Shown here in pieces: positions 55,549 to 64,000 of a DNA stretch of 64,000 nucleotides. The stretch comes from the human T2T-CHM13v2.0 reference genome, Homo sapiens. Within the stretch, counting starts at the first letter, position 1. Every line of letters starts with the position of its first letter. Under the pieces are notes generated by a model that had not been told where the DNA came from, ran no database searches, and was given only the letters and a program-made list of their open reading frames with translations. Where the stretch lies: the NCBI RefSeq assembly GCF_009914755.1, contig NC_060944.1; one strand, 5' to 3'. The translations under genes were made by a program, and so were the position numbers.

Positions 55549-55864
<316 letters not shown>

Positions 55865-56186
55865 TCACATCTTCACGCTCCACTTTTCATACTAGTCCTC
55901 TTGCTATCTTCACCACATCTGTGGTTACTTCCTCTGCTATGGTCTCAAACCCCTCAAAGTCATTTATGGGAGTTAGAATCAACTTCTTCCAAACTCCCAT
56001 TAATGCTGCTATTTTTACCTCCTCTGGTGAATCATGAATGTTCTTAGTGGCATCTACAATAGTGAATCCATTTATAGAGCACGGGTAGAGTAGATTTAGC
56101 ATAATTCTTAAGAGGTTCCCTAGGATTTATGGAATGGCAAATGAGCATTGGCTTGTAATAAGAGAGTCAGTCTGTCCTTTAAATCA

Positions 56187-56476
56187 TTTTTTTTTTTCTT
56201 GAGATAAGGTCTCACTCTGTTGCCCAGGCTGGATTGCAGTGGCATGATCTTGGCCCACTTCAGACTTGACCTCCTTGACTCAAGCAATCCTCCCACCTCA
56301 GACTCCTGAGTAGCTGGACTAGTAGCATGCACCACCATACATGGCTTTTTTTTTTATTCATTTATTTTTGGTTAAAGACAGGGTTTCACCATGTTGCCCA
56401 GGCTGGCCTCAAACTCCTAAGCTCAAGCTATTCTCCCACTTCAGTCTCCCAGAGACATGAGCCACCCTGCCTGGCC
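56187..56476 (-). mobile_element. AluJ in Tigger1
   Basis: J-type diagnostics. Confidence 0.88.
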
Positions 56477-56934
56477 TCTAAATTCGTGTTATGTAGACTG
56501 ACTTTCATGGTTAAAATGTCCTGAATTGACTGTGGCCTGTTGGGAGGTGGGATGGAGGAAACTACTTATGGAAATTGAAGAAGAAAGGGAAGCACACCGG
56601 AGCAAGAAAGTGTCATTCAATTTTTACATCAAGGACTCCATGGTAAAGAGAAAGAACAGGTAGCCTGTTTTTGTGGCTGACCATTGGACTGCAGACTGCA
56701 CCTGCATCTACCAGGTTCTTCTGGATAGTCCCAGTTTTAAATTTTTGACCTGGCATTCATGAACACAGTGCTACTGGTCAGACCTTTGTCCAGGTTTAAG
56801 CTTCAGAAAATAAGGTCTTCACGCAGTGGGAGGCCTGGTTAGGGTTATGATTCTGCCCTGGGGCATCTGACCCTTCTGACCTGGAGGTAAACTTGGCATC
56901 TACAATTTACCTCCACATTTGAACAGCCAAGGAT

Positions 56935-57095
56935 GGGCTGAGCACAAAGGCTCGCATCTGTAACTCCAACACTTTGGGAGGCCAAGGTGGGAGTATTGCT
57001 TGAGGCCAGGAGTTGTAGACCAGCCTGGGCAATATAGTGAGACCTTGTCTCTATAAAAACAAACAAACAAACAAACAAACAAACAAACAAGCAAA
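56935..57095 (+). mobile_element. FLAM/Alu left monomer with (CAAA)n tail
   Basis: ccaaggatg repeated on both sides. Confidence 0.85.
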
Positions 57096-57309
57096 ACCAA
57101 GGATGCGTGGGTGGCAGGGAGCAGTTCAACATGGGAAACCATTAATCTGAGAGCTGGAAGGACCCTTAGACCAGCCCCCTATTAACAGATGAGACTGCCC
57201 TGGGATTATAGCCTAAGGTAATTCATTGAACTTTTCTAGAGATTTGAAAATCAACATTCCTAAAACCCCCAAGCATACTGCTACTGTTTGCTATTGAATA
57301 GTGTTTTCT

Positions 57310-57701
<392 letters not shown>

Positions 57702-57844
57702 TTATTTCCAGATCATGGAAGTGGGAATACTTGTTGATCATCTTCTATGTTCTTTGTTATATTGATTGATTTTTTAAAAAAGCTAGCATTTTTATAACAA
57801 TAAAGTCATAAAAATAAGTAACTAAAATAAAGTAAAATAATCTA

Positions 57845-58148
<304 letters not shown>

Positions 58149-59115
58149 AAATCTAAATGTAATTGAGTTGAATATTTAAACTTTTAATTGACATTTCAAA
58201 TTAGGTTCTAATTCCATTTAAAAGAGCATCTTATAGAAGCAAATGTACTCATTTATGTTAACTCTGTGGTTTCATTTAAGCAATTTGTTTTGTGAAGGGA
58301 CACAAAGCCAACCAGATTTTAACAGTGTATAAATATGTATTTATTAATTTAATTACAATGACAATACTCTCAACTCCCCATTTGAATAAAGGAGAGCATC
58401 TGATCTGTGTTCTGGGACAGCGTGCACTGTAGGTGTGTGGAAATACCGATGCCCTCAGCTGTGTGGCAGGCTCAGAGGGACCTGGAGTGCAGGAGCCCCT
58501 GGGCCATTCACCTCTGGCCACAAAAGTCATTGTCCATTTACCCCCAACTGCTATAGAAATATTATTTTCAGTGGTTGTTATGATGCAAAAGAAAAGATGC
58601 AGGGAGATTTATTAAACCTTTACATATAAGATATGTTAGTAAATAAAGTCTACTTTCTTCTGGCTTAACTAAAAATCTTTACTAGTATTTATGCATTTTG
58701 GAAAATAAAGATGCCAATTTAAATATTATGAAGCAAAGCAATTGATTATTAGTTAAGACAGCCAAGTACAACTGCAGAATTGTAGAGGTTATGTGTTACA
58801 TGTATAAGACTATTTCATAGCAATAATCTTTTAAGACTCTGTGAAGACACTCCACAGTGAAGCAGAAATTAGAGCAGAATTAATAATACTGTGTATGCTC
58901 TCAGTTCACCAATTTATCAAAACTAGCTTTGTAATTCAGGAGGCTGTCTGTTCTTTTGCAACTGGAAGAAAAGAAATAACATTTTATTTTTCAGCTCTTT
59001 AGATTTTCTTCATTAAGAGTATTTCCAAAGCTAAGTATGGGAATTGCCAGTAGCACCAAGAGAAAAAAGCAGTCTTGAGCAGCTTTTAAAAAATGGTCTT
59101 AAAATATGGAAAATG

Positions 59116-59420
59116 GAGCCAGGTGTGGTGGCTCACTCTTGTGATCCCAGCACTTTGGGAGCTTGAGGTGGGAGGATTGCTTGAGGCCAAAAGCTTGAGA
59201 CCAGCCTGGGCAGCATAGCAAGATCCCCATCGTTACAAAAATAATATATTTTTTTAAAATTAGCTGGATGAGGTGGTGCATGCATTAGAGTCCCAGTTAC
59301 TTGGGAGGCTGAGGTAGGAGGAGTTCTTGAGCCCAGCAGTTCAAGTCTGCAGTGAGCTATGATTGCACCAGTCCTCAAGCCTGGGCAACAAAGTGAGACC
59401 TTGCCTCTCTCTCTCTAAAA
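59116..59420 (+). mobile_element. AluJ with TA-rich tail
   Basis: J-type; atatggaaaa on both sides. Confidence 0.88.
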
Positions 59421-59469
59421 ATATATATAAATATATATAAATAATATATATCCACATATATATGGAAAA

Positions 59470-60500
59470 GGGAAGGGGCCAAGAATATCAAAGACATTAT
59501 TGAAGAAGAGGAAAGATTTGTGCTGGCAAATATCAGAACTTTTATAAAGCTACAGCAGTTAAGACAGTGTGGTCCTCACTGATAAACTGACTAATGAAAC
59601 AGAATAGAGAGTTCCCAAACAAATCTCCACAAATTTAATCTTTGATATGTGATGTAGGTGACATGGCAGATCAGCAAGGAAAGAAAGGACTTTTCAATAA
59701 ATAGAATAGAAAAATAATGGTTATTGATATAAGAAACAAAATGAAATTATATTCCTGCCTCGCTCTATATACAAACATTAAATTCCTGAGGACCAAAGAC
59801 TTACATGTCAGAAACAAAACTTCAAAACTTTTAGTAGAAAATGTAAGTGAATGAGACACAAAAAGCCATTTAACCATTAAAAAAGATTAGACATTTTGAC
59901 TATCACAAAATTAAGAACTTTTTACACCAAAAACTGAAAAGATAGGCTGGGCACAGTGTCTCAATCCTGTAATCCCAACAGTACATCACCTGAGGTCAGG
60001 AGTTTGAGACCAGGCTGGCCAACATGGTGAAATGCCATCTCTCCTAAAAATACAAGAAATTAGCTTGGCATTGGTGGCAGACACCTGTAATCCCGGCTAC
60101 TTGGGAAGCTGAGGCACGAGAATCGTCTGAACCCAAGAGGTGGAGTGAGCCACTGCACTCCAGCCTGAATAACAGAGCTAGACTCTGTCTCAAAAAAAAA
60201 AAGAAATTAAAAAATAAAAGTAAAAAAGTGAAAAGATAAACTATAAATTAGAAGATATTTGCAGTACCTAAAACCTATGAAAGATTACAATCAGATCAAC
60301 TAAGTATAAGGAGCTCCTATGAATTAATTTTAAAAATAGCAACCCAACAGAAAATTCGGAAAAGACATCAATAGGGATTTCTCAAAAGATAAAGCATGCA
60401 AAATGTAAAAAAAATTCTCAACCTCATTAGTAATCAGGAAAATGCACAAGATACTACACATCTATTCTCCCCACAATTATTAAGAAATTTGACAATACCA
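59470..60500 (+). mobile_element. Old L1M (L1ME-like) ORF2 fragments
   Basis: tataaagctacagcagttaagacagtgtgg, gaaacagaatagagagt, ggacttttcaataaatag. Confidence 0.7.
59945..60230 (+). mobile_element. AluS with two internal deletions
   Basis: TSD gaaaagata. Confidence 0.88.
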
Positions 60501-60502
60501 AA

Positions 60503-60982
60503 TGTATTAGTCCACATTTGCACTGCTGATGAAGACATACCTGAGACAGGGAAGAAAAAGAGACTTAATTGGATTTAGGGTTTCACATGGTTGAGGAGGA
60601 CTCAGAGTTACGGCAGCGGGTGAACAGCACTTCTTACATGGCAGTGGCAAGAGAATATGAGACGGAGGCAAAAGAAGCAAAAGACAAAACCCCTAATAAT
60701 CCCATCAGATCTTGTGAGATTTATCCACTATCACAAGAATAGCATGGGAAAGACCGGCCCCAAAGATTCAACTACGTCCCCCTGGTTCCCTCCCCGAACA
60801 CGTAGGAATTCTGAGCAATACAATTCAAGTTGAGATGTGGGTAGGGACATAGTCAAACCATATTTTTCCACTCCTGGACCCTCCAAATCTCATGTCCTCA
60901 CATTTCAAAATTTATTACGCCTTCCCAACAGTCCCCCAAAGTCTTAACTCATTTCAGCATTAACCCAAAAGTGCACTGTCCA
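60503..60982 (-). mobile_element. THE1 LTR (60503-~60863) plus ~120 bp of internal sequence, truncated
   Basis: tgtattagtcc...acaattcaagttgagat...aaaccata, then ccctccaaatctcatgtcctcacatttcaaaa...agtcttaactcatttcagcattaac (THE1-int). Confidence 0.88.
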
Positions 60983-62420
60983 CCGGGCACAAGCATGAAC
61001 ACAACCGTTTGTTTCGCCGTCGCTCCATATGCCTCCGGTGACACACAATCACAGCATCTGCTCTGGGATATGCCAATACCATGCCTGGCCGCATGGTCTC
61101 CAGCTCGGATTAACCCCTGTTCCTGTTTGCTCGTGTCCTGTAAAGCACTCTCGGCTTTCTGGAGGCCCAGAGCTTTTAGAAGAAGGGCAGGCCCCTGCTC
61201 TTTCAAAGGAGGAGGGAGGCAGAGGGCTGATGGATCAGTGAATTTTCAGCTGACAACACGCCTTGAGACTCATGGGATCGACTTGTGCTGCAGCGAGGCC
61301 CTGCCTGCCTCATCAGGAGTGGTGAGCCCATCCTATCTCACTCGGAAGGGGCCAAAATCGCATCTGAAGGGGAGTCCCGAGAACACAGCAGGCGTCCTGA
61401 AGCTCCCCCTCCCTCGGTGGAAGTCCGCCCAAGGAGGTCCTGAGGACAGGACTCCTGGGAGTTTCGTGCTGGGACAGGACCCCCGCGGCCTCCTCTCAAA
61501 CGCCACCCCCAACTGGACCCCGGGTCCAGCCACCACCGTGGCTGCAGGAGGACACTCGCTGCTGACGCGTAGCTGTGGACTTATTTAAAGGGGATGCAGC
61601 CTGAGTCGGCGTAGCCAATGCGCATGCGCAAGGCGCGAGCGGCTTCTCACGTCACAGTGCTTCCCGCGGTTGTCTTAGAAACCAGTCCCTGAGGTTTGGC
61701 AGAGCAGGAGCCCTCCGTGGCACTGCTTGGGTGTCGGGGCTCTGAGGCTCCGGCCTGACCTCTCCACGGGGTCGACGGGAATGTCTCCGGATGCCAGGGG
61801 TCGCAAAGGGCCGACCAGGATGTGGAAACCCCAGGCGGAGTTCGCTGGAAGCAGCATGGCATCCCAGCCTCAGGCCTGCCCGGACCGTGTTGGGGAGTCT
61901 CCCCAAAAGTCGTGCCGCCGTGGTCTCGAGGACAGGTCGGCCTGCGTGCCCCTGGGCTGCTCTCTCACCCGAGGGTCGTTCTCGTGGAGAGCAGAACCCC
62001 GCAGCCTCAGGGGTTGCCTGGGGGTGTGTGTTTCAATGCCTCTGCTGTATGACTCCGTGTGTGTGTGTGTGTGAGTGTGAGTGTGTGTGTGAGTGTGTGT
62101 CTCCCTTTGTCTCTTCTCTTTGTCTCTCAGTCTCTGTGTGTTTCTTTCCCTCTCTCTGTCTGTGTGTGTGTGCCCGTGTGCGTGTGTGTCTTTGGCCGAA
62201 TGCGCCCAGTGCACCACAGAGCGATTTTTCGCATGTCGGCCTGTCTTTGGTGAGCCTCTTTCTGCGTCTCTGCCTGGGTCGTGCATCCGGTTGTCAATCG
62301 TCTTTGCCGTCGCGGTCCCGCTTTGGGTGTGTGAAGGCCTGGCCCACGTGAGGAGATGCGTCGGTCCCGGAGCAATTGTAATCTCATCCCCTTTCTGCGC
62401 GTCCTCTTTTCTAGGATCAA
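60983..62420. promoter_or_regulatory. CpG-island-like, probably bidirectional promoter region
   Basis: Abrupt rise in GC and CpG; TA-box-like tatttaaa 61582-61589, CCAAT 61615-61619, NRF1 palindrome TGCGCATGCGCA 61619-61630, CRE/ATF-like TCACGTCAC 61647-61655. Confidence 0.75.
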
Positions 62421-62881
62421 GATGAACACACTGCAGCCGAGGACAAGAGACCCACAGGAGCTCTTCGTCCTGCAGGAGAGGAGAGGACCCACGTCAGTGA
62501 AGATGGTTGTATCTTTTCACGGCTCTTCTCTGAGAAATGAAGCCACACCACGATACAGTCTGCAAGAGGAAGCCGGTAATGGGAGATGGCAACAACCCCT
62601 GTCACTGGAATGCTGGCATCTCTGGACAAGCCACCCTTTTGGAACCTTCCCCTTATGCCCGTGGCAGTGGCATGGTTCTGTATCCTGCCTGGGCTCTGGG
62701 CTCTGGCCTCTGCTCTGTCTTCCCTCTTGCTGTGCCTCCCCTGTTTCTCAGGGGCCTAGATGCCTCTCGCTCTGGCCAAATGTCTTCAACGAAGATGACT
62801 TCCAAGTCCTTCAGGGAGACACTTCCGGGAGATCAGTGTCATGATTGTTTCTCTCTCCAAACGTGTTTCTGCTTGAATGGG
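61650..62881 (+). pseudogene. FAM27: FAM27-family (FAM27B/C-like sense, FAM27D/E-like antisense) lncRNA or pseudogene copy, 3'-truncated
   Basis: Acceptor ctttt-ctag|62415 opens [41 protein letters not shown], matching the recalled FAM27B/C C-terminus. Minus-strand MRLQLLRDRRISSRGPGLHTPKA and RQPLRLRGSALHENDPRVREQPRGTQADLSSR match recalled FAM27D1/E hypothetical proteins but are split over three frames. Confidence 0.8.
62057..62190. repeat. Compound (GT)n/(CT)n microsatellite
   Basis: Directly visible in the FAM27 intron. Confidence 0.9.
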
Positions 62882-62883
62882 GA

Positions 62884-64000
62884 AGTTTTGAAACACTCCT
62901 TTTGTTTAATCTGCTATTGGATATTTGGAGCTCTGTGAGACATTCGATGGAATCAGGAATATCTTCACATAAAAACTAGACAGAAGCATTCTCAGAAACT
63001 GCATTGTGATGTGTGCATTCAACTCACAGAATTGAACCTTTCTTTCGATAGAGCAGTTTTGAAACAGTCTTTTTGTAGAATCTGCAAGTGGGTATTTGGA
63101 GCGATTTGAGGCCTATGGTGGATAAAGAAATATCTTCCCATAAAAACTAGACAGAAGCGTTCTCACGAACTTCTTTGTGATGTGTGCATTCAGCTAACCG
63201 AGTTGAAGCTTTCTTTTGATAGAGCACTTTTGATACACTCCTTTTGTAGAATCTGATAGTGGATATTTGGAGATTTTTGAAGCCTACGTTGGAAACCGCA
63301 ATATCTTCCCAGAAAAAGTAGACAGAAGCATTCTCAGAAACTTCTTTGTGATGTGTGCATTCAACTCACGGAGTTGAACCTTTCTTTGGATAGAGCAGTT
63401 TTGAAACACTCTTTTTGTAGAATCTACAATTGTTTATTTGGAGCGCTTTGAGGCCTATGGTGTAAAAGAAAATATGTTCATATAAAAACTAGATGGAAGG
63501 ATTCTCAGAAACTTCTTTGTGATGTTTGCATTCAACTCACAGAGTTGAACATAGCTTTTGATAAAGCAGTTTTGAGTCAGTCTTTTTGTAGATCTGCAAG
63601 TGGATATCTGGAGCAATTTGAGACCTAGGGTGGAAAAGGAAATATCTTCACACAAAAACCAGAGAGAAGGATTCTTAGAAACTTCTTTGTGATGTGTGCA
63701 TTCGACTCACAGAGTTGAACCTTTCTTTTGATAGAGCAGTTTTGAAACACTCCTTTTGTAGAATCTGCTGGTGGATATTTGGGGCTCTTTGTGGCCTTCG
63801 TTGGAAATGGGAATATCATCACATAAAAACTAGACAGAAGTATTCTCACAAACTTCTTTGTGATCTGTGCATTCAACTCACAGAGTTGAACCTTCCTTTT
63901 GATAGAGCAGTTTTGAAACATTCTTTTTGTAGAATCTGCAAGTGGATATTTAGAGCAATTTGAGGCCTATGGTGGAAAAGGAAATATCTCCACATAATAC
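62884..64000 (+). repeat. Alpha satellite, ~6.5 diverged monomers, continuing beyond the window
   Basis: The cattctcagaaact landmark recurs at 62987, 63158, 63329, 63500, 63670 and 63841 (171, 171, 171, 170, 171 bp). Confidence 0.99.

What the first reader, a model, noticed from the sequence alone, without database searches (positions are those of the whole stretch)
61560..64000. FAM27-type CpG promoter fused to alpha satellite: a candidate Pol II source of chimeric alpha-satellite RNA
Seen: an intact motif cluster (CCAAT overlapping a perfect NRF1 palindrome, CRE-like site) lies ~1.25 kb from the first alpha monomer. The FAM27 sense direction and its exon-2 acceptor (62415) point toward the satellite. 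The exon is cut at ~62883, and I see no AATAAA between the acceptor and the window end. Inference: transcripts would run into the array as FAM27-alpha chimeras, and the island might act as a chromatin boundary. NRF1 binding is methylation-sensitive, so this could be a germline or hypomethylation-dependent switch. Retained CpGs hint at germline hypomethylation or a recent duplication.
Basis: partly seen in the sequence, partly recalled or inferred. Interest (0 to 1): 0.7.

Follow-up and report, generated by a model that had tools for sequence, protein, structure and literature searches.

The report
FAM27-family CpG island abutting alpha satellite
An old copy of a repeated pericentromeric DNA unit, carrying a well-preserved CpG-island promoter, is cut off by and fused to alpha-satellite DNA; it could feed RNA polymerase into the satellite, but no transcription is shown, and similar satellite-entering RNA genes are already annotated elsewhere.

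Summary
The sequence features are real. A 1.1-kb CpG island (61451-62550) holds CCAAT (61615-61619), a perfect GCGCATGCGC palindrome (61620-61629) and a CGTCA half-site (61650). It belongs to a duplicon with at least 40 copies in chr1, 7, 9, 12, 13, 14, 17, 20 and 21 pericentromeres.

This copy is truncated at 62884-62887 by monomeric alpha satellite, where 24 of the 29 other full copies read on through a shared non-alpha sequence. The same junction occurs at two other chr20 sites, so it is old and no assembly artefact.

The FAM27 label holds: Pfam PF15832, E 2.8e-28. That ORF, and published FAM27E3 primers and siRNA, lie on the strand pointing away from the satellite. A family-conserved donor/acceptor pair does face the satellite, but this copy has lost the donor GT.

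The + strand has no AATAAA or ATTAAA before 64211.

New here: in the island core, CpG sites changed no faster than other sites (ratio 0.99, lowest of 30 copies; median 2.84). This argues for long-term germline hypomethylation, not recent duplication.

Transcription is untested, and RefSeq annotates no gene here. Precedents exist: LINC02002 in print, and LINC01597 by coordinates. Verdict: new member of a known kind, modest interest.

The parts
60979..61602 (+). Upstream part of the duplicon unit. It is contiguous with a segmental-duplication flank (about 55566-61605) shared with chr20:31.313 Mb and chr20:26.275 Mb.
   Evidence: The flank is 94-96% identical to the chr20:31.313 Mb locus and 93% to the 26.275 Mb locus. 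Within the unit, 60979-61605 is 93-94% identical to 'unit 1' of the 31.32 locus but only 84-85% to 'unit 2'.
61451..62550 (.). CpG island: 1100 bp, GC 0.60, observed/expected 0.69, 68 CpG.
   Evidence: In the core (61603-62414) CpG sites changed no faster than other sites: 8/113 against 50/697.
61582..61589 (.). TATA-like TATTTAAA. It or a one-base variant is present in the 23 other copies whose alignment reaches this region.
   Evidence: The strand it serves is undetermined.
61602..61603 (.). Copy-specific joint. Twenty bases present in other copies are missing just upstream of CCAAT, and paralog affinity switches here from unit-1-like to unit-2-like.
61615..61629 (.). CCAAT box (61615-61619) directly followed by the perfect GCGCATGCGC palindrome (NRF1-type, 61620-61629).
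   Evidence: The 15-mer is exact in 21 of 30 paralogs, the palindrome in 23 of 30 and CCAAT in 27 of 30. The 20-column conservation window ranks 142 of 1434.
61650..61654 (+). CGTCA, a CRE half-site.
   Evidence: Present in 15 of 30 paralogs; the full CRE is in 0 of 30.
61890..61899 (+). Position of the family's + strand 5' splice site (GTGAGT). The GT is deleted in this copy.
   Evidence: The donor GT is kept in 28 of 30 copies and lost here. It is a 2-base loss relative to the closest paralog.
62020..62200 (.). TG/CA-rich microsatellite zone inside the putative + strand intron. On the minus strand it encodes the His-Thr repeat of the FAM27 ORF.
62127..62387 (-). Remnant FAM27 (D and E) ORF on the minus strand: 86 codons from the ATG at 62387, with a frame shift relative to the intact chr9 form.
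   Evidence: Pfam PF15832: 98.6 bits, E 2.8e-28, profile 1-66 of 91. A second frame matches profile 51-89. An intact 140-aa chr9 ORF scores 129.7 bits on the same relative strand. ORF length.
62400..62414 (+).
   Evidence: The AG is kept in 28 of 30 paralogs.
62415..62886 (+). Exon-2-like segment, the best-conserved part of the unit, truncated at its 3' end. It carries a 140-codon + strand ORF (62422-62844) that is not conserved as open across copies.
   Evidence: Conservation peaks. ORF lengths vary from 11 to over 155 codons among 30 copies. No Pfam hit.
62884..62887 (.). Breakpoint between the duplicon and alpha satellite, with a 2-3 base overlap.
   Evidence: The identical junction occurs at chr20:31,322,08x and chr20:26,281,88x.
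62887..64000 (+). Monomeric alpha satellite. The block continues beyond the window to about 72,897, where an antisense L1 interrupts it.
   Evidence: The modal monomer spacing is 171 bp. Across 48 monomers the mean identity is 83.7% and the maximum 92.4%, with no higher-order period at offsets 1-24. L1 at about 72,897. Alpha-like samples continue to chr20:30.80 Mb.

Best explanation
STRUCTURE (shown). This is a copy of the FAM27-family pericentromeric duplicon. It comprises the upstream region, a CpG island carrying the family's conserved CCAAT plus NRF1-type palindrome, an exon-1-like segment, a TG-rich intron-like segment that carries the FAM27 D/E ORF on the opposite strand, and an exon-2-like segment. 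Its 3' side was replaced by monomeric alpha satellite through a non-homologous join with 2-3 bases of overlap at 62884-62887.

HISTORY (shown in outline). The join is old and was later copied by segmental duplication. Three chr20 loci (26.28, 30.63 and 31.32 Mb) share it. The window copy is itself a recombinant of two tandem units. It has two lesions of its own: 20 bases missing just upstream of CCAAT, and loss of the exon-1 donor GT.

FUNCTION (inferred). The island core has been kept unmethylated in the germline for most of this copy's history, most simply because transcription factors occupy the conserved CCAAT/NRF1 cluster. That makes it a competent and probably bidirectional CpG-island promoter. 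Polymerase leaving it on the + strand would produce mostly unspliced RNA that crosses 62886 and runs at least 1.3 kb into same-strand alpha before the first ATTAAA at 64211. I expect any such RNA to be low in abundance and restricted to germline or hypomethylated cells, a by-product rather than a dedicated centromere function.
For: FAMILY AND TRUNCATION
- 41 matches (40 of 935 candidates scored) lie on chr1, 7, 9, 12, 13, 14, 17, 20 and 21.
- Paralogs continue past 62886 with a shared non-alpha sequence.
- Pfam FAM27 matches at 98.6 bits.

JUNCTION AGE AND SPREAD
- The breakpoint is identical at three chr20 loci.
- The four to five monomers next to the junction are colinear with the 31.32 copy at 92-93%.
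- The junction copies group together on the tree, SH-aLRT 91, below the tool's 95 star level.
- The window is a mosaic: unit-1-like to the left of 61605 and unit-2-like to the right.

PROMOTER
- The 15-mer CCAAT plus palindrome is exact in 21 of 30 copies despite holding 3 CpGs.
- A + strand donor and acceptor are each kept in 28 of 30 copies.

CpG PRESERVATION
- In the core, CpG-site changes are 8/113 against 50/697 at other sites. The ratio of 0.99 is the lowest of 30 copies (median 2.84).
- The flanks of the same copy give 15/60 against 35/553, ratio 3.95, Fisher p 2e-5.
- A stricter test on private sites gives 2/52 against 42/671, ratio 0.61, again the lowest.
- No other full copy is more than 86.7% identical in the core, so recent gene conversion is unlikely.

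READ-THROUGH
- There is no AATAAA or ATTAAA on the + strand between 61600 and 64210.

PRECEDENTS
- By the hub's coordinates, LINC01597 spans FAM27-like units and ends at chr20:30,517,111, inside an alpha block (30,515,723-30,517,539), with AATAAA 31 nt upstream of its end.
Against: - No transcript, TSS, methylation or ChIP data could be consulted.
- RefSeq annotates no gene or functional element at the island (hub table).
- This copy lacks the exon-1 donor GT and 20 bases of the core promoter region. Either lesion may weaken the promoter or destabilise its RNA.
- The FAM27 D/E ORF and the FAM27E3 reagents lie on the strand that points away from alpha.
- Strand-composition skew around the cluster is weak once the microsatellite is left out.
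- PRO-seq signal over monomeric alpha is reported as lower than over active arrays (Hoyt preprint, passage read).
- The CpG test rests on a majority consensus in which 13 of 30 rows are chr9 copies, and on small counts in the strict version.
- Other alpha-adjacent copies show ordinary CpG decay: 31.32 Mb 2.68, chr12 4.02, chr1 4.34. The preservation is therefore a feature of this copy, and one copy can be a chance outlier.
Confidence: 0.55

Rival explanations
1. Silent relic. The island is methylated and transcriptionally dead in all tissues. The fusion is just one of many duplicon/satellite joins in a pericentromere, and the low CpG decay is a sampling or consensus artefact.
For: There is no RefSeq gene or functional element at the island (hub table). 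The copy has two private lesions in the promoter and exon-1 region. Both strands' ORFs are variably broken across the family, so there is no sign of coding constraint. The strict CpG test involves only 2 events. Sister junction copies have decayed: the 26.28 Mb copy has lost the palindrome and exon 1, and the 31.32 Mb copy has a ratio of 2.68.
Against: The core ratio of 0.99 is the lowest of 30 copies, although this copy has among the highest non-CpG divergence (50/697). Its own flanks decay at 3.95. The same ranking holds under the second method.
Confidence: 0.3
2. The promoter is active but fires mainly on the minus strand, away from the satellite. Little or no alpha-containing RNA results.
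For: The FAM27 D/E ORF and the FAM27E3 primers and siRNA lie on that strand. Read on the minus strand, the motif order (CGTCA, palindrome, inverted CCAAT, TATA-like) is the classical upstream-to-TSS order (this reading of the order is my inference). The + strand donor is lost here.
Against: The FAM27 ORF lies upstream of the cluster on the minus strand, so the cluster cannot be that ORF's promoter within a single unit. In the chr9 arrays, a minus-strand acceptor is kept in all 4 aligned copies that adjoin the FAM27E3 3' exon and lost in the 7 neighbouring sense-oriented chr9 copies of those arrays; one further chr9 copy, C9_48358404, which is neither, also keeps it. This fits a model in which exon 1 comes from the + (sense) side of an upstream unit's promoter. 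CpG-island promoters are commonly divergent (general knowledge).
Confidence: 0.2
3. CpG preservation reflects proximity to satellite DNA, not promoter occupancy. Sperm hypomethylation spreads from satellites into adjacent DNA ('centromeric hypomethylated extension domains', CHEDs).
For: PMC13308097 (passages and section 8 read) reports that sperm hypomethylation extends from satellites into neighbouring DNA. It also reports that duplication copies near satellites are less methylated than distal copies, with a distance effect. The island lies 0.3-1.4 kb from alpha.
Against: The segment nearest the satellite (62415-62886) and the far flank together decay at 3.95, while the core, which lies further from the satellite, is at 0.99. 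Three other alpha-adjacent paralogs show ratios of 2.68-4.34.
Confidence: 0.12
4. The junction is an assembly artefact.
For: None was found. Pericentromeric duplications are error-prone in general.
Against: The identical breakpoint is present at three loci that differ by 7-15% around it.
Confidence: 0.01

Closest known systems
FAM27 gene family (FAM27D/E; Pfam PF15832) pericentromeric duplicon
   Same: The Pfam domain matches above the curated cut-off. The unit is 82-90% identical at DNA level to at least 40 copies, including the chr9 units that adjoin the sequences targeted by published FAM27E3 primers and siRNA. It shares the CCAAT/palindrome cluster, the splice signals and the TG microsatellite.
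   Different: It is truncated by alpha at 62886. Its FAM27 ORF is frame-shifted to 86 codons. It lacks the exon-1 donor GT and 20 bases upstream of CCAAT. RefSeq does not annotate it as a gene (hub table).
[quoted passage not shown]
   Same: A non-alpha element with promoter potential sits directly against divergent or monomeric alpha, with its transcription direction running into the satellite.
   Different: That case is an annotated RNA. Here no RNA is annotated or shown, and the promoter is a CpG island of a duplicon rather than an SST1 element.
LINC01597 (chr20, about 110 kb upstream of this island)
   Same: By the hub's coordinates it spans FAM27-like unit pieces and ends inside a + oriented alpha block, with AATAAA 31 nt before its end. 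It is in the same pericentromere and involves the same duplicon family.
   Different: Its annotated start lies in unrelated AT-rich sequence, 162 bp before a promoter-less unit piece, not at a CCAAT/palindrome cluster. Its exon structure was not available to me.
Read-through from embedded transposable elements into alpha satellite (Hoyt et al. preprint 10.1101/2021.07.12.451456, passages read)
   Same: The idea is the same: Pol II starting at a non-satellite promoter spills into neighbouring alpha, mostly divergent or monomeric.
   Different: The promoter there is a retroelement, and that work has PRO-seq evidence. No such evidence was available here.
Centromeric transition-zone segmental duplications (She et al. 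2004, seen only as a reference entry; content recalled)
   Same: A mosaic of duplicons directly abuts monomeric alpha, and junctions are propagated by later duplications.
   Different: That is a general class. The specific junction and the CpG preservation of this copy were not found in the searches run.

Membership tests
FAM27 family (Pfam PF15832, 'FAM27 D and E protein family') | Protein-level match to the family profile above the curated gathering score | tested here: met
   window:62127-62516 minus strand scores 98.6 bits against a 30.8 cut-off, E 2.8e-28, profile 1-66 of 91. A second frame scores 26.2 bits for profile 51-89. An intact chr9 paralog ORF scores 129.7 bits.
   The ORF is on the minus strand. 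The FAM27E3 primers and siRNA targets map on the strand opposite to the adjoining unit's promoter-to-exon-2 direction at five chr9 loci. A 3-exon model could still place exon 1 on the + side of an upstream unit; that is inference.
FAM27 family (Pfam PF15832, 'FAM27 D and E protein family') | Annotated as a FAM27 gene at this locus | tested here: not met
   The hub's RefSeq table lists only CFTRP3 in the window.
CpG island (Gardiner-Garden and Frommer criteria; criteria recalled) | At least 200 bp, GC at least 0.5, CpG observed/expected at least 0.6 | tested here: met
   61451-62550: 1100 bp, GC 0.60, observed/expected 0.69.
NRF1/NF-Y-type CpG-island promoter | Consensus palindrome GCGCATGCGC and a CCAAT box | tested here: met
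   Conserved in 21-27 of 30 paralogs.
NRF1/NF-Y-type CpG-island promoter | Factor occupancy and a transcription start nearby | not testable with these tools
   No ChIP, CAGE or PRO-cap data are held. The indirect support is the lack of excess CpG decay in the core.
Monomeric (non-HOR) alpha satellite | Monomers of about 171 bp with no higher-order periodicity | tested here: met
   The modal spacing is 171 bp. Mean identity is 83.7% and the maximum 92.4% over 48 monomers, with no offset from 1 to 24 standing out. The suprachromosomal family was not assigned.
lncRNA running from a non-alpha promoter into alpha (LINC02002 / LINC01597 type) | An RNA that crosses the junction | not testable with these tools
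   No RNA data are held, and RefSeq has no model here (hub table).
Centromeric hypomethylated extension domain (CHED, PMC13308097) | Non-satellite DNA adjacent to peri/centromeric satellite | tested here: met
   The island lies 0.3-1.4 kb from an alpha domain that runs to at least chr20:30.80 Mb.
Centromeric hypomethylated extension domain (CHED, PMC13308097) | [quoted passage not shown] | not testable with these tools
   No methylation data are held. That paper's supplementary tables were not consulted.
CTCF-type chromatin boundary | CTCF core motif | tested here: not met
   There is no match to the exact or relaxed core pattern on either strand in 60900-63000. The consensus was recalled from memory, so this is a weak test.

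The most novel reading that the evidence does not exclude
FAM27-family CCAAT/NRF1 islands are a recurrent class of germline-unmethylated 'satellite-edge' promoters. At five loci from two independent junction events (chr20 x3; chr1 and chr12), the unit's promoter-to-exon-2 direction points into alpha satellite. The window copy, the one with no excess CpG decay, would be an active, methylation-gated Pol II entry point that produces defined-start alpha-satellite RNA in germ cells or hypomethylated cells.
Probability: 0.1. Interest if true: 0.55.

Novelty: new member of a known kind. Interest (0 to 1): 0.3.

Why it matters
Where alpha-satellite RNA starts is still poorly defined. A single-copy-resolvable CpG-island promoter lying 1.3 kb from, and pointing into, about 10 kb of same-strand monomeric alpha would give a concrete, testable start site. 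It would also be a natural experiment on methylation-gated satellite transcription.

The CpG-decay comparison across 30 paralogs is a sequence-only way to nominate which duplicon copies have stayed unmethylated in the germline. It singles out this copy.

The general phenomenon is already annotated elsewhere (LINC02002 in print; LINC01597 by coordinates). This copy carries lesions and has no annotated RNA. The value is therefore that of a good candidate locus, not a new principle.

Tried and rejected
- The FAM27E3 primers and siRNA targets from PMC12343231 were looked for in the window and loci L001-L015 with up to 2 mismatches. None matched. They were then located in the whole assembly.
- PMC9815527: the primer list in the passages shown was cut before any FAM27E3 entry, so it was not used.
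- Coding constraint: ORFs on both strands are variably interrupted among the 30 copies (+ strand 11 to over 155 codons, minus strand 8 to 207). Neither strand looks protein-constrained.
- Pfam on five + strand ORFs gave no FAM27 hit; the only + strand match was a sub-threshold NICE-1 hit, 14.3 bits against a cut-off of 27.
- Strand-composition skew as a TSS indicator: weak once the microsatellite is excluded, so inconclusive.
- CTCF-like motif: none. Rfam families in 58000-64000: none.
- LINC01597 as evidence for a + strand start at a homologous cluster: rejected. Its annotated start lies in unrelated sequence.
- Satellite proximity as a general cause of CpG preservation: not supported by the three other alpha-adjacent copies.
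- Higher-order repeat structure in the alpha block: none.
- Literature: 'FAM27' alone returned 142 papers, and those listed are biomarker studies. 'FAM27' plus 'satellite' returned 7 papers, none relevant by title. 'FAM27' together with alpha satellite, pericentromeric, segmental duplication or T2T: none of the 20 listed papers holds FAM27. A search on alpha-satellite read-through or chimeric transcripts listed nothing that held 'alpha satellite'.
- The splice-site scan used a position table recalled from memory and is heuristic only.
Full report
WHAT IS THERE

The window is T2T-CHM13 chr20:30,566,001-30,630,000 (hub note; confirmed). Between 61451 and 62550 lies the only sizeable CpG island of the 64-kb window: 1100 bp, GC 0.60, CpG observed/expected 0.69, 68 CpG.

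At its 5' edge sit three motifs:
- CCAAT at 61615-61619;
- a perfect GCGCATGCGC palindrome at 61620-61629, the only match in the window at up to 1 mismatch (0.04 expected; 4 of 100 shuffles gave one);
- a CGTCA half-site at 61650.

A TG-rich microsatellite zone follows at about 62020-62200. Next come a pyrimidine-tract AG ending at 62414 and a 472-bp exon-like segment. At 62884-62887 the sequence switches to alpha satellite.

On the + strand there is no AATAAA or ATTAAA from 61600 to the window end. The first ATTAAA is at 64211 and the first AATAAA at 67034.

- the 'CRE' is only a half-site;
- a common poly(A) hexamer variant lies 211 bases beyond the window;
- the junction 24-mer is not unique (see below).

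IT IS ONE COPY OF A LARGE DUPLICON FAMILY

A search of the window's own assembly with 61560-62900 gave 41 matches (40 of 935 first-look candidates were scored, so this is a lower bound). They are 76-100% identical and lie in the pericentromeres or short arms of chr1, 7, 9, 12, 13, 14, 17, 20 and 21. After fetching their surroundings I found 69 full or partial pieces and aligned 30 full-length copies.

Homology to the other copies ends at 62876-62886. The five non-alpha copies displayed continue with one shared non-alpha sequence. Of the 29 other full copies, 24 show GC 0.56-0.62 and no alpha match in the next 1.4 kb.

IS IT FAM27, AND WHICH WAY DOES FAM27 POINT?

Pfam gives a direct answer on identity. 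The ORF window:62127-62516 on the minus strand matches PF15832 ('FAM27 D and E protein family') at 98.6 bits (cut-off 30.8), E 2.8e-28, profile 1-66 of 91. A second minus-strand frame matches profile 51-89, so this copy is frame-shifted in the His-Thr repeat encoded by the microsatellite. An intact 140-codon ORF in a chr9 copy, on the same relative strand, scores 129.7 bits. No + strand ORF matched FAM27; the only + strand hit was a sub-threshold NICE-1 match (14.3 bits, cut-off 27).

Published reagents agree on orientation. The FAM27E3 qPCR primers and siRNA targets of PMC12343231 (methods passages read) map to five chr9 loci. There they lie 200-500 bp beyond the 5' edge of a unit, on the strand opposite to that unit's promoter-to-exon-2 direction. 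A canonical AATAAA follows.

The 'FAM27-type' label is therefore supported. The statement that FAM27 sense points toward the satellite is not supported by the evidence I could test.

The + strand is nevertheless not featureless:
- A textbook donor (GTGAGT at about 61893) keeps its GT in 28 of 30 copies.
- The acceptor at 62414 is also kept in 28 of 30 copies.

On the minus strand:
- A donor at about 61967 is kept in 28 of 30 copies.
- An acceptor at about 62560 is kept in 19 of 30 copies.

Within the chr9 arrays, that minus-strand acceptor is kept in all 4 aligned copies that adjoin the FAM27E3 3' exon. It is lost in the 7 neighbouring, oppositely oriented chr9 copies of those arrays. One further chr9 copy, C9_48358404, which is neither, also keeps it.

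This fits a three-exon model:
- exon 1 comes from the sense side of an upstream unit's CCAAT/palindrome promoter;
- exon 2 is the antisense read of an inverted unit and carries the Pfam ORF;
- exon 3 comes from a flank with the poly(A) signal.

The model is my inference. I could not check it against an exon table.

THE JUNCTION IS OLD, SHARED AND NOT AN ARTEFACT

The identical breakpoint occurs at chr20:31,322,08x and chr20:26,281,88x. It matches with 2 mismatches at chr20:26,281,866. Assays based on that k-mer alone cannot assign reads to this copy.

The four to five alpha monomers after the junction are colinear with the 31.32 Mb copy at 92-93%, with a one-monomer offset. Beyond 63741 the register is lost. 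On a tree of 32 rows the three junction copies fall together with one partial neighbour. Support is SH-aLRT 91, below the tool's 95 star level.

A four-way alignment shows that the window copy is a mosaic:
- left of 61605 it resembles 'unit 1' of the 31.32 Mb locus (93-94%);
- right of 61606 it resembles 'unit 2', the alpha-truncated one (90-95%).

The switch coincides with 20 bases missing just upstream of CCAAT. Unequal recombination between two tandem units explains this; that is inference.

Among the three junction copies:
- The 31.32 Mb copy keeps the motif cluster, donor and acceptor.
- The 26.28 Mb copy has a decayed palindrome and lacks the exon-1 region.
- The window copy keeps the cluster but has lost the donor GT, a 2-base loss relative to its closest paralog.

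A second, independent junction type is shared by chr1:126.82 Mb and chr12:37.37 Mb. There the unit runs about 270 bp further and then meets alpha in the opposite orientation. A third contact lies at chr20:30.5157 Mb.

THE SATELLITE

From 62887 the alpha is monomeric. The modal spacing is 171 bp. Across 48 monomers, mean pairwise identity is 83.7% and the maximum 92.4%. No offset from 1 to 24 monomers stands out. The block contains eight CENP-B-box-core matches in about 10 kb of alpha (motif recalled from memory).

The + oriented block runs about 10 kb, to roughly 72,897 in window coordinates, where an antisense L1 interrupts it. All 7 samples between chr20:30.645 and 30.80 Mb are alpha-like, in the opposite orientation; one of them matches over only 195 of 701 bases. 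The sample at 30.85 Mb and the 8 samples from 30.95 to 31.29 Mb are not alpha-like.

THE NEW RESULT: CpG DECAY

Each copy was compared with the majority consensus of the 30.

- In the window copy's island core (61603-62414), 8 of 113 CpG positions changed against 50 of 697 other positions. The ratio of 0.99 is the lowest of the 30 copies (family median 2.84).
- Its flanks (61450-61602 plus 62415-62886) changed at 15 of 60 against 35 of 553, ratio 3.95, Fisher p 2e-5.
- A stricter test used only sites where at least 80% of the other 29 copies agree. It gives 2 of 52 against 42 of 671, ratio 0.61, again the lowest, though on few events.
- The core is at most 86.7% identical to any other full copy, so recent duplication or conversion does not explain the retained CpGs.
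- The closest paralog (31.32 Mb) lost 16 of 111 CpG positions against 37 of 687 other positions.

The simplest reading is that the core, and only the core, has been unmethylated in the germline for most of this copy's separate history.

A 2026 preprint (PMC13308097; passages and section 8 read) reports that sperm hypomethylation spreads from satellites into adjacent DNA. Here, however, the stretch nearest the satellite decays normally. Three other alpha-adjacent paralogs show ratios of 2.68-4.34. Proximity alone is therefore not sufficient.

Caveats: the consensus is weighted toward chr9 copies (13 of 30 rows); there is no outgroup; and one copy in 30 can be an outlier by chance.

HOW IT MOST LIKELY WORKS

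Shown:
- the structure;
- the family membership;
- the age and spread of the junction;
- conservation of the motif cluster (the 15-mer is exact in 21 of 30 copies, the palindrome in 23 and CCAAT in 27; its conservation window ranks 142 of 1434);
- CpG preservation in the core;
- the absence of a strong poly(A) hexamer for 1.3 kb into alpha.

Inferred: the cluster is occupied in germ cells and the island is a competent, probably divergent promoter. + strand transcripts, now without their normal donor, would be mostly unspliced. They would cross 62886 into alpha and end at ATTAAA (64211 or 64382) or later.

I put the chance that junction-spanning RNA from this copy is detectable in some tissue at roughly one in three. 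I put the chance that it has a function of its own at a few per cent.

Points against:
- RefSeq has no model or functional element here (hub table).
- The copy carries two private lesions in the promoter and exon-1 region.
- Nascent-RNA signal over monomeric alpha is reported as lower than over active arrays (Hoyt preprint, passage read).

COMPARISON WITH WHAT IS KNOWN

The kind is known.
- Altemose et al. [quoted passage not shown]
- Hoyt et al. describe possible read-through from embedded retroelements into alpha.
- In this same pericentromere, the hub's coordinates place the 3' end of LINC01597 at chr20:30,517,111, inside an alpha block (30,515,723-30,517,539), with AATAAA 31 nt upstream. 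The gene spans several FAM27-like unit pieces. I did not have its exon structure.

I found no paper linking FAM27 to satellites. That holds only for the library searched.

VERDICT

The central functional idea remains an untested but reasonable hypothesis. It gains indirect support from CpG preservation and loses some from the missing donor and the missing annotation. It is a new member of a known kind, of modest interest. Its main use is as a well-defined candidate locus, alongside its better-preserved sister at chr20:31.32 Mb.

Noticed in passing
outside the window: chr20:30,509,480-30,517,111 (L030, L056): By the hub's coordinates, LINC01597 spans several FAM27-like unit pieces in both orientations. 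It ends inside an alpha-satellite block (30,515,723-30,517,539), with AATAAA 31 nt before the annotated end. It looks like an annotated lncRNA with an alpha-derived 3' end. The exon structure was not available.
   Followed up: partly
L014 (chr12:37.364-37.374 Mb) and L026 (chr1:126.8225-126.8305 Mb): A second, independent duplicon/alpha junction. The unit runs about 270 bp past the window's breakpoint and then meets alpha in the opposite orientation. The same breakpoint is found on chr1 and chr12.
   Followed up: partly
L016, L018, L020, L021, L022 (five chr9 loci) and chr12:54,041,926-54,042,147: The sequence targeted by published FAM27E3 primers and siRNA is a flank joined to units that lose family homology just upstream of the CCAAT/palindrome cluster (BLAST homology from 61603; by eye to about 61560). 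One siRNA target and the reverse primer also match a single site at chr12:54.04 Mb. The 3' exon may therefore derive from a chr12q13 duplication.
   Followed up: partly
alignment of 30 copies, window-equivalent ~62560 (minus strand): A minus-strand splice acceptor (CAG) is kept in all 4 aligned chr9 copies next to the FAM27E3 3' exon. It is changed to CTG in the 7 neighbouring sense-oriented chr9 copies of those arrays; one further chr9 copy (C9_48358404) also keeps it. This suggests exon 2 of FAM27E3 is the antisense read of an inverted unit.
   Followed up: partly
just beyond the window: ~72,897-74,000 in window numbering (L009 8897-10000): An antisense L1 3' end (T-run, then L1 sequence identified by eye) interrupts the + oriented alpha block. 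Samples from chr20:30.645 Mb onward are alpha in the opposite orientation, so the domain contains at least one strand switch.
   Followed up: no
window 55566-61605: A roughly 6-kb flank is 93-96% identical to chr20:31.313 Mb and chr20:26.275 Mb, showing one segmental duplication shared by the three junction loci. The 31.32 Mb locus carries two tandem units where the window has one recombinant unit.
   Followed up: partly
chr20q11.1-q11.21 (literature; hg38 coordinates): PMC13618840 (passages read) lists candidate imprint-control regions within or near LINC01597. It notes that the region is dense in correlated regions of interindividual methylation variation. Whether any of these is a FAM27-like island could not be mapped, because the coordinates are hg38.
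   Followed up: no
window 62422-62844 (+): A 140-codon + strand ORF starts 8 bases after the acceptor. It is open at 138-140 codons in 9 of the 30 copies (two more run to the end of the aligned segment) and broken in the rest, and has no Pfam match.
   Followed up: partly
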